A stretch of DNA of 63,620 bases, the filler included, from Dugesia japonica (taxonomy: Eukaryota): assembly GCA_001938525.1 (NCBI GenBank). It is 5 parts of 5 records of this genome, joined end to end, with 100 filler letters (N's around TTAATTAATTAA, not from the genome) between each part and the next. Parts side by side here need not be neighbours in the genome. Positions count along the whole stretch, not along the records: positions 37,641 to 54,445 come from MQRL01595859.1; 4 more parts are not named here. One strand, 5' to 3'. This document shows positions 43,494 to 51,000 of the stretch, one piece after another. The first letter of the stretch is position 1. Each line of letters begins with the position of its first letter. Below the pieces are notes generated by a model, which saw only the letters and a program-made list of their open reading frames with translations, was not told where the DNA came from and did no database searches. Made by a program: the position numbers and the translations under genes.

Positions 43494-44207
43494 TTAGTTT
43501 TGTGCTTCAAGCGTCATGGTTTGTGTAGACAAATCGTTCTGTTTTTTAACCAATAAATCTAATTTCTTTATTAATCGATCCCGCTGGATGAGATGTCTTA
43601 GAAGGGCCCGTTCGGTCTTACGTTTTAAATGTCGTTCTAACAACAAACGACGCATAATCCGGTGACACCTCCGTAAACTCGTTGGAAATACAATTCGTGG
43701 CACTAAATAATTAAGTATTAATAATAGGGAAGAAATAATTAATATTATTGATATTGAACTCGTCTAATCTAAATTTAGGTGACACACGCTAAGGCAAAGA
43801 TTACAACACTCGATTTTTNNNNNNNNNNNNNNNNNNNNNNNNNNNNNNGATATGGATTTTGTCTGTGTGCTCTTATCAATCATGAGAGGTTCGAGGTAGG
43901 ACCTTTCCTTAAGATGCAGGATATCTTTGATCAGTTTATTTTCACGGTCATGGCTGGACTGGATGATCTCGGCGAACGACTCTACCTGCGATTTCCAAAT
44001 TCTTTCTTGGTCGTTCGCAGCTTCCATCTCTTTGGGTACGTTAACACATTTATTTCTATAATGCTTCACTTTCGCGTTTGCGGTTTCTAACTCCGCTTCA
44101 AATCGCCGTTTTGCCAACATGTATAACTCCCAGGACATTTCCGTGTCCTCATTGGAATCTCTCATCTGCTTATTGGGTGCCGACGAACGGTTTAATGATG
44201 AATGCAC
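43494..44207 (-). CDS. Orphan coiled-coil protein, probably spliced (exons begin ~44207 and ~43702), copy A; may be a pseudogene
   Basis: Protein-level match to 50003-50700 in both segments; both segments preceded by pyrimidine-rich ag|TG acceptors; start and donor sites not resolved. Confidence 0.55.
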
Positions 44208-44367
44208 TATAATACAAATACAATAAGAATAACGGGATCTCATTTTAACTGTTTACTAGAAAATCTATCACTTAATAAATAAAGACAGAATGGTGTCATA
44301 AACAACAAAATAATAACGAGACAAATAACGCCAATTCCTAGCTAAACATTTATTTTAATTAACCACG

Positions 44368-44796
44368 TTATACTGAAACGTCTGTGACTTCCACTTCTGC
44401 GTTTTCGTCATTACCACTAGACGCCCCATTACGAGCATTCCACAAATAATCCTGAATGAACGAAGTCAGTTGGGTGGGTGAAGGTAGGCGATTCGTGGTG
44501 ATGCCTATTAAGGAAGGTCCGTCATGCCACATACGCTCTACTTGTGATATTTCGGCAGATCTCTCAAAAGAAAGTGGAGCTGGGGTAAATGCAACTCTGT
44601 CTCTTCTAGGGTCACACCAACTGTAATATACACTCCTCTCGGTGGCATCCCATTGTCTTTCCTCTATTACTTGTTCGATCGGCAGGTTTGATCTTTCTAT
44701 CAAGACTCCTACGTTGCAATCATATGGGTTTTGGTATCGTTTAAACACAGTTCTGCCCGAGTTAATATCAAGGCTTACCTCCTACTTGTATTCCAT
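44368..44796 (-). pseudogene. Orphan ~142-codon ORF with one early stop
   Basis: In-frame ATG at 44796 gives MEYK*EVSLDINSGRTVFKRYQ...; GC-richer than flanks; AATAAA on - at 44354-44349. Confidence 0.5.
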
Positions 44797-45059
44797 TTAA
44801 TAATGCTCTAAAATAGTATTTGGTAATGTTTTGATTAAAGATAAAAATGAATAAGACAACAAAAATTAGAGTTTATTTTATATGAACGTGATCATGGAGT
44901 AGAATAATAATGTTAATACGTTAATAAAAACATAGGATCATTGGCAATATTATTTAACACTTTATGCGTACTACTTAAAATAACAGTAACAATATTACCA
45001 GTAGTAATGACGGAAACAATAACATTAAGGGCGGTAACCTTAGCATAACAACCATACCC

Positions 45060-47967: not shown

Positions 47968-48408
47968 TTATACTAACGTTTCCTCCAGAATCTCACCTTC
48001 CTCGTAATCGTCTAAATACATGACGAGCGGGGATATTTCTCTCTCCACACTCCTTAGTATTTGCTTAGATTGTTAGATGCGCTGCTCTCATTGCTCTCGA
48101 GTACTGTGAGTCAGCGATGGTTACTGTTGTAGATGAAAATCTATCCTATTCAGTAAACCCGCAATCTCATTCGTCCTGTTGGCGAATTCATACTCGATTC
48201 GCGCTAGCCCATTTTTGTGCGTCTCTTTGACTAGTAGTTGTCCTTCCAATTTCACTTTCTGAAGTTCTCATCATTGCAGGCGATCCTGCTGTATCTATGA
48301 GGGATTGTGGTTGCTACCAATCTCGCTGATCGTATCCCAGAAACTTGGTAGTTCCAAATTATGATGAGTTATTTTTATATCACAAAATTCTGATTGAATC
48401 AAACCATG
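47968..48408 (-). pseudogene. Decayed orphan Q/E/R-rich helical ORF ending LDDYEEGEILEETLV
   Basis: GC-richer island; one frame reads protein-like over ~145 codons with six in-frame stops. Confidence 0.35.
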
Positions 48409-48813
48409 TCAATAAATTTTATTAAATTTTGATTTGAATAATTTACACACAAATAGAGTTTTTTCACTACCGCTAGGTTCACCTATTTGATATACAGCAT
48501 CATTTCTTAATTCCATTTTTAATGCTTGCTTAAACGTATCAGTTTAATTAATATTGTTATTACATGTATAAATATCCTTGTGAAAATTAATTATTCATAA
48601 ATAATTATTACAAATATTAATTGGAAAGATTGTACTAGTTGGTATGCAAACATTAAATTATAAACATTTAGTTGAAAAAATTATAAAAAAATTAGTTAAT
48701 TTAATTATTAATTTAAATGCCGTTGTTTAAATTAAATGATTGCAACTATTGTAAACTTTTCAAATTATGGATGATGTAATCTTGTTAGAGTAACAAAAGA
48801 CTAATAACAAACT

Positions 48814-51000
48814 TGTTGGGGTGAAACAAGGCCATTATTACAGTTCTCATTTGATCATTGTTATTAACTTTATTATTACTATTTTAGTCATTGATATTGC
48901 TATCATTACTAATTTTAATAATTGTTAATTGAAATGACTTAACGGTGGACCCTTCAATAGATAAGATTACCATGATTGATATCACAAACAGAGTTAGGAT
49001 TAACTTGACATTAGGATACCCTTGTCATCATGTTGTGGGGTATTTAATCAATTTATTATTATTACTAGTTAATATTATTAGTCGTTCTACAACGACAACC
49101 TATGACTGATTATCATTGTGATCACCATTTTTAAAAATTTTCCTGACGTCCAGTGGTTTGCCATCTTTGATACCGTTATGTCCTAGTATTAGTAACGAGA
49201 CGCCCAACCATCAAGCTGATTTGACAAATTTTTCTTTTAGAATACGAAAAATACAGCTTTGCACACTTCTTATTCAAAATTATTAAGGACGAACGGGAAT
49301 TGGCACTGCTTCACCAATTGGTCCTTCATGTCCTCTATCTGGATACAGTAGAACACCCAGATGAGACTAATTTAGCATGTCTCGACGAGATTTTCCCTCT
49401 GAAATCACTATCCAGTACCAATTAAGTGTGTAGATGTCTTTTAACAAATAAAACTTTTATTGAATCACTGGTTGTTTTAAGTTATTTATTAGTAATTTAT
49501 TTTTAATAGAATGGCTCGAGATTATGTCTGGCAGCTATTTTTTCTTGTGAACGGTCGTATCGTGTTTTAGTGAGTCTGGAACTTTTTCCACCGAGATGTT
49601 GGGATCTAGGTGGATCGACAGAATATCCCACCCGAAGATCAAATACAGCACCGCTGCGAGGATAGTCTCGAAAGATTCAACGATCGTTATTGGCCCACTG
49701 GTGGGTAGAATTAATTAGCTAACATTTGTATTATTTATAGCTATTAATTATAATATTGTTGTCTTAGTTCTCATTGTTTTTCTTTCGTTCTATAGATATA
49801 AGTAATTATAATCTATAAATTAAGTAACAGATCATTGGACTGTGAAATTTTCCCCAAATATTGTTGCTTTATTGTGAATTTTCTTCTTGTATTAGGTCAA
49901 TCCATTGAACTAAATAGGCAAAAAATTCATTTTATCCTCTCCCTGCTGATTAATACCCAGCTTGATATTATAGAATAATTAATAATTGACTCTTTTATTA
50001 CAGTGGACATGAATAAAGACAAATTTACCACCACTTCCGCACATAAGCAACAAAGCGATGGCAACAATGACAAAGAAATGTCTTGGGAGCTGTATCGGCT
50101 GGCTAAAAGAAATTGGGAAGCTCAGATTGCTGCCAAGAAGGCCAAAAATAAAATGTATAAGAAGCGATGCCACGAGTTCCGAGAAGAAGCTGAACTCTCA
50201 CATTCCCAGGAACGACTATGGAAAGCACAGTTGAAGACCTTCGTCGAGATCATACGTTCCTTACAGGAGAAAGAGAATCGGCTAGTGAACGATATTTTAA
50301 AGTTAAGAGCTTGACCCACTTCTTATTGATTAAATGACCCAAACTTGGAACTGATTTTATTCTTATGATTATAAATAAACTCTTATATGTCGTGTTGTTC
50401 ATTCGTTTTTCTTTCTAGCACGCAACATTTATTATTATTAGTCTCAAGTTAAAATCTTGTTAAATTTCAGTGTCTGGCGACCGAATGTCACTAACTTTGA
50501 CAAAATGCCACCGATTACTACAGGGGCTTTGGATGGAACGCCGATATGCTAAACAACGCGAGTGCAAGCTACTAAGCTATATCGAGCGCAAGAATAGAAT
50601 TATTAAACAGTAAGAAACGGTTTATAAGAAGCAACTGTCAATTGCTAACGCTACTGCATACAAATTATTCTTGAACCAATATCGCGGATCTGGTCGCTAA
50701 ACGCAGCACCCTGAGGTTAATAGAAATCAAAAAGCAGAAGAAAATGGAAATAGACAAGAGCAGGGAAATCGCATGATATTTTATTGATTGGCATATTTTA
50801 TTAATTCTCGGTGAATTAAAGGATTTTCATTATCATTTTTATGACTCAGTTATAGAGTTTTATATGCTGCTTCCCGGGAATTATTATGTCCTATATCTCA
50901 AGGTTATATTTTACCAATACACGAGGAATCAATTAATCTCTTGGTGGATTTATACGTAATAAATGTTAACACGATGGTAGAAAAATAACTACGACATAGT
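48814..51000 (+). mobile_element. Second, divergent member of the TGTTGGGGTGAAAC family; far end not found
   Basis: Same terminus, TTA-rich segment, then the homologous two-segment gene in the same relative orientation. Confidence 0.55.
50003..50700 (+). pseudogene. Orphan coiled-coil protein copy B (exons from ~50004 and 50471)
   Basis: EMSWELYRLAKRNWEA...ERLWKAQL..F.EII.S...ENRLVNDILKL and TLTKCHRLLQGLWMER...RIIKQ*ETVYKKQ align with copy A; in-frame TAA at 50611. Confidence 0.6.

What the first reader, a model, noticed from the sequence alone, without database searches (positions are those of the whole stretch)
43494..50700. Orphan spliced coiled-coil gene conserved between two divergent element copies
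Seen: EMSWELYMLAKRRFEA/EMSWELYRLAKRNWEA, ERIWKSQVESFAEIIQS/ERLWKAQLKTFVEIIRS and ENKLIKDILHL/ENRLVNDILKL. A second segment, missing from the ORF track for copy B, also aligns: SLRRCHRIMRRLLLER/TLTKCHRLLQGLWMER. All four segments start at an ag|TG phase-1 acceptor, and both copies lie downstream of a TGTTGGGGTGAAAC terminus on the same strand. Inference: purifying selection acted on a TE-borne spliced gene of unknown function. Retained introns are notable if the carrier is a retroelement.
Basis: partly seen in the sequence, partly recalled or inferred. Interest (0 to 1): 0.72.

Follow-up and report, generated by a model that had tools for sequence, protein, structure and literature searches.

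The report
Orphan gene array inside LTR-like element
Two distant copies of a mobile element share three short protein-coding blocks with no known relatives, two of them with clear signs of purifying selection; they likely are accessory genes inside a giant solo retrotransposon LTR, each predicted to be its own spliced and polyadenylated unit, which would be an unusual way for a retroelement to express extra genes.

Summary
The two peptide pairs align (46% identity over 93 aa, E 2e-26; second pair z 14), and all four start at ag|TG phase-1 acceptors. Synonymous sites are saturated (pS 0.90, pN 0.33). A third collinear block lies upstream in both copies, and the spacers do not align.

Copy A sits in a 3,863-bp unit bounded by TGTTGGGGT...ACCCCAACA with a 4-bp ATAT duplication. 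These ends fit the LTR integrase consensus. The 9-bp repeat is too short for a Ginger TIR. No gag, pol or transposase domain is present.

The 'one gene with retained introns' reading fits less well. Block 1 of B and block 0 of A end in stops followed by AATAAA, and B has no usable donor between blocks 1 and 2. The best reading is an array of alternative terminal cassettes in a large solo LTR (0.5). Both copies are decaying: 7 internal stops in blocks 0 and 2.

No homologue was found, but the databases also lack this host's Y-box protein. No spliced read was seen for B. Carrier class and splicing remain inferred.

The parts
43072..46934 (-). Element A, 3,863 bp, complete TG...CA unit (candidate solo LTR)
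   Evidence: TGTTGGGGT at both ends inverted, 9 of 9 identical then 21 of 40; ATAT on both flanks, the only terminus pair with a duplication in the window
43068..43071 (.). Target-site duplication ATAT (left)
46935..46938 (.). Target-site duplication ATAT (right)
46921..46934 (-). 5' terminus of A, TGTTGGGGTGAAAC
45930..46934 (-). A-rich (44% A) non-coding 5' region of A, homologous to element C
   Evidence: score 224 vs shuffles 74+-11; identity flat over codon positions 0.65/0.61/0.65 with many frame-shifting gaps; composition
45914..45919 (-). Candidate leader splice donor GTAAGT just after a block shared with C (C has GTAATT at 53512)
   Evidence: sequence context only; inferred
45030..45400 (-). 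(ATT)n microsatellite and degenerate tract inside A, with an assembly gap
44368..44807 (-). A block 0: acceptor, ATG 11 nt downstream, 142 codons with 1 internal stop, terminal TAA, AATAAA at 44354
   Evidence: homologous to B block 0 (score 76, 0 of 5000 shuffles)
43849..44206 (-). A block 1: phase-1 acceptor, 118 open codons running into an N gap; predicted single long helix
43290..43702 (-). A block 2: phase-1 acceptor, basic stretch then leucine heptads, 2 internal stops
43072..43289 (-). 3' tail of A: TATAAG (43262), ATTAAA (43238), GT-rich stretch, end GGGACCCCAACA
   Evidence: promoter and poly(A) roles are inferred
48814..48827 (+). 5' terminus of element B; lacks the 1-kb A-rich region; right end not found
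49241..49425 (+). B extra block: strong phase-1 acceptor, 60 open codons, no ATG in the first 80 nt, stop, AATAAA at 49447; no counterpart in A
49510..49708 (+). B block 0: acceptor, ATG at +1 (phase 2), 65 codons with 3 internal stops; possible phase-1 donor at 49701
50004..50314 (+). B block 1: phase-1 acceptor, ATG at +5, 102 open codons, TGA, AATAAA at 50374 with a GU-rich element
50471..50700 (+). B block 2: phase-1 acceptor, ATG at +14, 75 codons with 1 internal stop
52563..53530 (+). Element C: same terminus (1 mismatch) and a 5' region homologous to A; runs on to an assembly gap near 54447
19961..19974 (+). Element D: fourth copy of the terminus, followed by about 170 A-rich nt and a gap

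Best explanation
Copy A is a complete 3.9-kb TG...CA mobile unit, likely the solo LTR of a large gypsy-like retrotransposon, and it carries three short coding blocks conserved in a distant relative (B) that likely are separate accessory cassettes rather than exons of one intron-bearing gene. Shown: the ends, the 4-bp duplication, the three collinear homologous blocks, purifying selection on block 1, an acceptor before each block, and stops plus AATAAA after A block 0, B block 1 and the extra B block. Inferred mechanism: a transcript started upstream is spliced from one shared leader donor to one of several acceptors. The shared phase 1 of 6 of 7 acceptors suggests a short coding leader. The transcript is then cut at that cassette's own poly(A) signal, giving several small proteins. 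Blocks 1 and 2 are predicted helical, lysine/arginine-rich coiled coils, most likely homo- or hetero-oligomeric regulators of the element's own RNA or particles, by analogy with Cer1 CERV. The unspliced genomic RNA would carry all cassettes, so no intron has to be 'retained'. Both local copies are decaying and appear silent.
For: Ends match the LTR integrase consensus TGTTRNR...YNYAACA (PMC3601003, passages); inverted repeat only 9 nt; ATAT duplication. Four termini in 63.6 kb vs 0.02 expected. A and C share about 1 kb of non-coding 5' sequence. Coding blocks are conserved (z 13.5, 33, 14) while the two orthologous spacer pairs are not (238 and 451 of 500 shuffles reach the score). GC is 0.39-0.47 in blocks vs 0.20-0.28 in spacers. 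Selection. In run X1, 2 of the 8 listed pieces (contigs of 1,582 and 1,317 nt) lay only on 50051-50314 and 50076-50307 with 48 and 46 differences, i.e. further copies conserved over block 1 only. AATAAA lies 63-148 nt before 4 of 7 acceptors. One A spacer and one B spacer share an AATAAA plus GU-rich motif (1 of 500 shuffles, best of 15 pairs). AlphaFold gives one helix over residues 17-104 of block 1, mean pLDDT 81. A block 2 has five Leu i,i+7 pairs.
Against: No paired LTR, internal region, PBS or PPT was seen: 0 of 4 termini has a purine tract, and 0 of 103 ORFs hits RT, integrase or gag. No genome is held. A 3.9-kb LTR is far above the 174-695 nt mean lengths of the animal gypsy sets in PMC3601003 Table 1. 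The AATAAA enrichment is not significant (4 of 7 vs 150 of 578 background, p 0.08, window chosen after looking). B block 0 has a possible in-frame donor (49701) and is phase 2. A's block 1-2 spacer contains an N gap that could hide a donor. A true host donor next door scores only 5 of 9 by the same count (read from the intron printed), so weak donors may be missed, and decayed copies can lose donors. B lacks the region holding the candidate leader donor. In three RNA runs (about 6, 25 and 25% of each read) depth over B's blocks was 0-0.94 and none of the 15 listed joints had RNA support. A single predicted helix does not show oligomerisation.
Confidence: 0.5

Rival explanations
1. One reading: blocks 0, 1 and 2 are consecutive phase-1 exons of one orphan gene carried by the element; the stops and missing donors in A and B are decay after insertion.
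For: 6 of 7 acceptors are phase 1. B block 0 has a phase-1 donor candidate CTG|GTGGGT at 49701. A blocks 1 and 2 have conserved residues upstream of their first in-frame ATG (+41, +47 nt). Both copies are visibly decayed (7 internal stops). A spliced multi-exon accessory gene exists in Cer1 (PMC10309623, abstract and passages).
Against: It needs independent loss of donors and gain of stop plus AATAAA at B block 1 and at A block 0. A block 0 stays open about 80 codons beyond the aligned part and ends cleanly with AATAAA 14 nt after its stop. Both block-0 copies have an ATG at about the same aligned position right after the acceptor.
Confidence: 0.25
2. The carrier is a non-autonomous Ginger-like or other integrase-type DNA transposon that captured a host or viral gene cluster; introns or cassettes would then be unremarkable.
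For: TGT...ACA ends and a 4-bp duplication also fit Ginger, and Ginger1 has introns (PMC2836005, passages). A is a complete unit with no retroelement domain. A weak reversed match to the 5' region lies right of B (51354-51677, nhmmer E 0.008, high bias), as long TIRs might give.
Against: The inverted repeat is 9 nt, then 12 of the next 31, against 40-297 bp in Ginger tables. The target ATAT is neither CCGG/CCGT nor centred as RTATAY. No DDE domain is present.
Confidence: 0.17
3. The blocks are an operon-like array resolved by spliced-leader trans-splicing (each cistron with its own ATG), whatever the carrier.
For: Spacers are 84-295 nt, within the 300-nt operon spacing used for flatworms (PMC12582326, passages). 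An in-frame ATG lies within 14 nt of the acceptor in 4 of 7 blocks. No donor is needed.
Against: The host lineage is not established, so SL trans-splicing is not known to exist here. 3 of 7 blocks lack a near ATG. A shared phase 1 is not expected if each cistron starts itself. No SL-type loose end at any acceptor among the 18 loose ends listed of 1,043. This is a sub-case of the best explanation's architecture; its share is the chance that trans- rather than cis-splicing is the mechanism.
Confidence: 0.15
4. The blocks are a duplicated host gene family or pseudogenes that merely lie near repeat termini.
For: No TE domain nearby; B's right end was not found.
Against: A's blocks lie wholly inside a unit with inverted ends and a target duplication. 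Both copies follow the same 14-nt terminus. Other contigs match block 1 only. Expression is near zero.
Confidence: 0.06

Closest known systems
Cer1 CERV (C. elegans gypsy retrotransposon; PMC10309623, abstract and passages seen)
   Same: Lineage-restricted accessory protein with no homologue outside the group, made by splicing from a gypsy element, with a candidate leucine zipper
   Different: CERV is one 517-aa protein from 5 exons in the internal region (gag and the env position). Here short blocks sit inside a TG...CA unit and seem to end separately. No sequence comparison with CERV was made.
Extra ORF3s of bdelloid LTR retrotransposons and Terminon coiled-coil ORFs (PMC5408684 passages; PMC6431247 passages)
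   Same: Small coiled-coil accessory ORFs on invertebrate retroelements; ORF3s are said to be separate units expressed from spliced messages
   Different: Those lie downstream of pol, usually one per LTR element. Terminons are Penelope-like and end in hammerhead motifs; no Rfam hit here.
Giant-LTR elements: planarian Burro, plant Ogre (PMC6431247, passages)
   Same: Multi-kilobase LTRs (Ogre 1.9-6.5 kb) and accessory ORFs of unknown function; the window's 27% GC resembles the >70% AT planarian genome (PMC11410931, passages)
   Different: Their extra ORFs are described in the internal region or polyprotein. No Burro domain was found, and the host is not shown to be a planarian.
Ginger1/Ginger2 DNA transposons (PMC2836005, passages)
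   Same: TGT ends, 4-bp duplication, 2.6-7 kb size, introns in Ginger1
   Different: No 40-bp or longer TIR, different target, no transposase
LTR-encoded retroviral genes (MMTV sag, HIV nef) and the adenovirus late unit (recalled, from no call)
   Same: ORFs within U3 reached by splicing; one leader joined to alternative acceptors with several poly(A) sites
   Different: One ORF per LTR in those retroviruses; adenovirus is an unrelated DNA virus. Analogy only.

Membership tests
Solo LTR of a gypsy-type (Metaviridae) retrotransposon | Short inverted ends TGTTRNR...YNYAACA | tested here: met
   TGTTGGG...CCCAACA vs consensus in PMC3601003
Solo LTR of a gypsy-type (Metaviridae) retrotransposon | Short target-site duplication around the unit | tested here: met
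   ATAT at 43068-43071 and 46935-46938; being palindromic it could also be read as part of the inverted end, but the other three termini are not preceded by ATAT
Solo LTR of a gypsy-type (Metaviridae) retrotransposon | TATA-like box, AATAAA and GT-rich stretch near the 3' end | tested here: inconclusive
   TATAAG, variant ATTAAA and TGTGT about 170-190 nt from the end; common by chance in AT-rich DNA
Solo LTR of a gypsy-type (Metaviridae) retrotransposon | Occurs as a direct repeat flanking gag-pol with PBS and PPT elsewhere in the genome | not testable with these tools
   No genome held; within the window no RT/INT/gag hit in 103 ORFs and no purine tract before 4 termini
Ginger1/Ginger2 DNA transposon | TGTNR terminus and 4-bp duplication | tested here: met
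Ginger1/Ginger2 DNA transposon | TIR of about 40-300 bp | tested here: not met
   9 of 9, 21 of 40, 25 of 60 identical; beyond base 9 the shuffle p is 0.6
Ginger1/Ginger2 DNA transposon | Target CCGG/CCGT (Ginger1) or RTATAY (Ginger2) | tested here: not met
   One site only, ATAT
Ginger1/Ginger2 DNA transposon | Integrase-like DDE transposase | tested here: not met
   No Pfam hit in ORFs of 62 aa or more within A, B or C; a non-autonomous copy would also lack it
Burro giant planarian retroelement | Giant polyprotein with gag, BIR/BCL2, env, pol; planarian host | not testable with these tools
   No internal region in the window; host lineage unresolved
Single multi-exon gene with introns | In-frame donor after each internal exon and no stop before it | tested here: inconclusive
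   Not met for B block 1 and A block 0; possible for B block 0; hidden by an N gap for A block 1
SL trans-spliced operon | Spacers of 300 nt or less with poly(A) signal then acceptor | tested here: inconclusive
   Spacing fits; AATAAA before 4 of 7 acceptors, p 0.08
SL trans-spliced operon | Spliced leader on downstream mRNAs | tested here: inconclusive
   Almost no RNA reads on B
bZIP or env/gag protein | Pfam domain match | tested here: not met
   Only sub-threshold coiled-coil hits; Atlas bZIP clusters 0.89-0.90 with low recognition; no viral fold match
Penelope-like/Terminon element | Hammerhead ribozyme motif at the end | tested here: not met
   0 Rfam matches at gathering score in the window; divergent motifs could be missed

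The most novel reading that the evidence does not exclude
A family of invertebrate retrotransposons has turned its multi-kilobase LTR into a polycistronic accessory-gene array: three or more unrelated orphan proteins, each with its own acceptor and poly(A) signal, expressed like an adenovirus late unit or a trans-spliced operon, conserved between subfamilies whose synonymous sites are saturated, and left behind in many solo LTRs as a ready source of new host genes.
Probability: 0.3. Interest if true: 0.78.

Novelty: new variant of a known kind. Interest (0 to 1): 0.52.

Why it matters
Spliced accessory genes of retrotransposons are known, but in the papers seen they lie between the LTRs. An array of conserved orphan cassettes inside the LTR itself would travel twice per element and survive solo-LTR formation. 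It would raise a testable question: how full-length genomic RNA passes several internal poly(A) signals and acceptors, perhaps with help from these basic coiled-coil proteins, as CERV does for Cer1. It would also be a route to lineage-specific orphan genes. If the carrier is a DNA transposon or the blocks form one ordinary gene, it is a modest annotation of TE cargo.

Tried and rejected
Homologue searches with the two-sequence block-1 alignment were all empty: near lengths, 0 of 38 candidates; longer, 0 of 781; all 1.84 billion representatives, 0 at E 0.001; metagenome contigs, 0 of 364 stretches; viral contigs, 0 of 86. Exact look-up found 0 of 6 proteins. As a control, the neighbouring host Y-box domain found only 74-77% unnamed best hits, so the blanks say little about novelty, and the host lineage stayed unresolved. 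'Planarian' is only a guess from AT content. Blocks 0 and 2 were not sent to the large sequence searches.

Pfam on single blocks, including read-through with X at stops: nothing above threshold. ESM Atlas for B block 1 and A block 0: weak leads only, rejected. The fold search of the single-helix model against viral structures gave 0 matches and is uninformative. The fold of A block 0 was still unfinished at submission. No complex prediction was run.

Paralogy between different blocks was rejected: none of the 18 non-matching pairs of 21 is convincing; best 2 of 500 shuffles. A link to the coiled-coil N-terminus of Y-box hit P0012 was rejected. Coding in the A/C 5' region was rejected. An 'MGC...' leader with a strong phase-1 donor at 46394 in A was set aside because C does not keep it. 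No 3' end for B was found.

Run search: no RNA holder listed. No tRNA or Rfam family. Earlier scan findings: none. The Grohme 2018 Burro paper was not held; Burro statements come from the review PMC6431247. Searches for a printed precedent: 'ORF in the LTR'+retrotransposon+gypsy gave 0 papers; searches listed no LTR-embedded cassette array in titles or abstract starts. No supplements were read; repeat libraries in supplements may already contain this family.
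Full report
Setting. The window is a gapped, 27% GC eukaryotic scaffold with a rhodopsin-type GPCR, a spliced Y-box gene, and mariner and hAT remnants. No whole genome is held. The host lineage was not resolved: the Y-box domain's best hits are unnamed (74-77%), and named hits are scattered animals at 55-63%.

Observation. Confirmed. Block 1 aligns without gaps over 93 codons, 43 identical (tblastx E 2.2e-26; 0 of 2000 shuffles). Block 2 aligns at score 94 vs 27+-5. 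All four begin at ag|TG in phase 1. The copies are on opposite strands, head to head, each downstream of TGTTGGGGTGAAAC. That 14-mer occurs 4 times within one mismatch against 0.02 expected.

Selection. Block 1 has pS 0.90 (saturated) and pN 0.33. Bootstrap pN/pS is 0.27-0.49, with 0 of 5000 at or above 1. Matches by codon position are 51, 70 and 34 of 93 (position 2 vs 3, p 1.6e-7). A neutral simulation at equal nucleotide identity gave 23.7 identical residues on average, at most 40 against 43 observed, and stayed stop-free in 82 of 5000. Block 2 shows the same pattern on 38 codons (pS 0.80, pN 0.45). dN/dS was not computed for block 0.

A third homologous block (block 0) precedes block 1 in both copies (score 76, 0 of 5000 shuffles). 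B has a further acceptor-led open block of 60 codons with no match elsewhere in the window. Orthologous spacers do not align and are GC-poor. Different blocks are not paralogues. Internal stops: A block 0, 1; A block 2, 2; B block 0, 3; B block 2, 1; block 1, none in either copy. The chance that all 7 avoid block 1 is 0.05, and block 1 was noticed because it is open. Both copies are therefore decaying, and the selection acted on their mobile ancestors.

Carrier. A is bounded by TGTTGGGGT at 43072 and its inverse ending at 46934, with ATAT on both flanks. The ends match the LTR integrase consensus TGTTRNR...YNYAACA (PMC3601003, passages). The inverted repeat stops at 9 nt (21 of 40 overall), short of Ginger TIRs (PMC2836005, passages). 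A's first kilobase is A-rich, non-coding and homologous to a third element starting at 52563. A weak low-complexity match suggests C also runs into an ATT tract (E 0.004), but its ATT content is not raised. A's last 220 nt hold TATAAG, ATTAAA and a GT-rich run. Against the LTR reading: no partner LTR, PBS, PPT or gag/pol domain was found, and 3.9 kb is large, though Ogre LTRs reach 6.5 kb and Burro exceeds 30 kb in total (PMC6431247, passages). B lacks the A-rich kilobase, and its right end was not found. A highly repeated sequence lies at about 51969-52561. In run X1, whose type is not on record and which may be close to the window's source, one contig covers 49075-50283 with 16 differences. 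Two others match only block 1 at about 80%, so more diverged copies exist; only 8 of 6,530 pieces were listed and depth is no copy number.

Gene structure. B block 1 ends in TGA, followed 60 nt later by AATAAA and a GU-rich run, then the block-2 acceptor 97 nt after the hexamer, with no credible donor. A block 0 ends in TAA with AATAAA 14 nt later. The extra B block also ends in a stop and AATAAA. Overall 4 of 7 acceptors have AATAAA 63-148 nt upstream vs 150 of 578 background acceptor-like sites, p 0.08: suggestive only. Six of seven acceptors are phase 1. Four blocks have an in-frame ATG within 14 nt, and three do not. The simplest joint reading is alternative terminal cassettes spliced to one leader; a candidate donor follows a block conserved between A (45919) and C (53512). 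For a single gene instead: B block 0 has a phase-1 donor candidate at 49701, A's block 1-2 spacer has an N gap, host donors can be weak, and decay can remove donors. Trans-splicing is a third option if the host has it (PMC12582326 and PMC5832876, passages).

Expression. Three RNA runs of the same species label (about 6, 25 and 25% read) gave depth 0-0.94 over B's blocks at 80% likeness. None of the 15 joints listed of 37 had RNA reads, while the neighbouring repeat was covered. Splicing is therefore not shown. Copy A was not examined with reads.

Proteins. Block 1 is predicted as one 88-residue helix (mean pLDDT 81, pTM 0.39, two-sequence alignment), with hydrophobic a/d positions mainly in its C-terminal half. 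A block 2 has a basic stretch and leucines at i,i+7 on both sides of its first internal stop. There is no Pfam, Atlas, viral-fold or sequence homologue, with the caveat that the collections seem to lack this species. The function is inferred by analogy: small basic oligomeric regulators of the element's RNA or particles, like the spliced CERV of Cer1 (PMC10309623, abstract and passages) or the coiled-coil ORF3s of rotifer elements (PMC5408684, passages).

Verdict. This is a real, conserved, TE-borne set of orphan coding blocks. It is likely an accessory cassette array in a large solo LTR (0.5); one multi-exon gene (0.25) and a DNA-transposon carrier (0.17) remain open. Spliced accessory ORFs on retrotransposons are known, so intron-like structure alone is not the surprise. 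An array inside the LTR would be, and the paper searches (listings only) showed no such case. New variant of a known kind; interest 0.52.

Noticed in passing
window 32988 and 61192 (+): A second terminus type, TGTTGGGCTAGAAC, occurs twice after AT-rich flanks; probably a sister family. A further TGTTGGGG start lies at 32243 and another at 42807, 265 nt left of A's end.
   Followed up: partly
window 51354-51677 (-): Weak reversed match to the A/C 5' region (score 128 vs 74+-9; nhmmer E 0.008 with high bias); perhaps a truncated relative facing B.
   Followed up: partly
window 51969-52561: Very highly repeated, transcribed element without Pfam hit, abutting the terminus of C exactly; read on both strands in all three RNA runs.
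   Followed up: no
window 41320-41850 (-): Host Y-box/cold-shock gene with short introns and an RGG-rich tail; closest database relatives are unnamed at 74-77%.
   Followed up: partly
window 13892-14992 (+): Rhodopsin-family GPCR ORF, interrupted by N gaps.
   Followed up: no
window 17378-18720: Mariner-type element with 104-nt inverted arms and a broken transposase; hAT dimerisation fragment at 60526-60804.
   Followed up: no
window 54655-55200 (-): 134-codon helical ORF with an upstream frame-shifted part, no Pfam hit above threshold; possibly a gag-like TE remnant.
   Followed up: partly
window 20177 and 54490: TTAATTAATTAA inside runs of N is an assembly spacer, not biology; it creates false inverted repeats.
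   Followed up: yes
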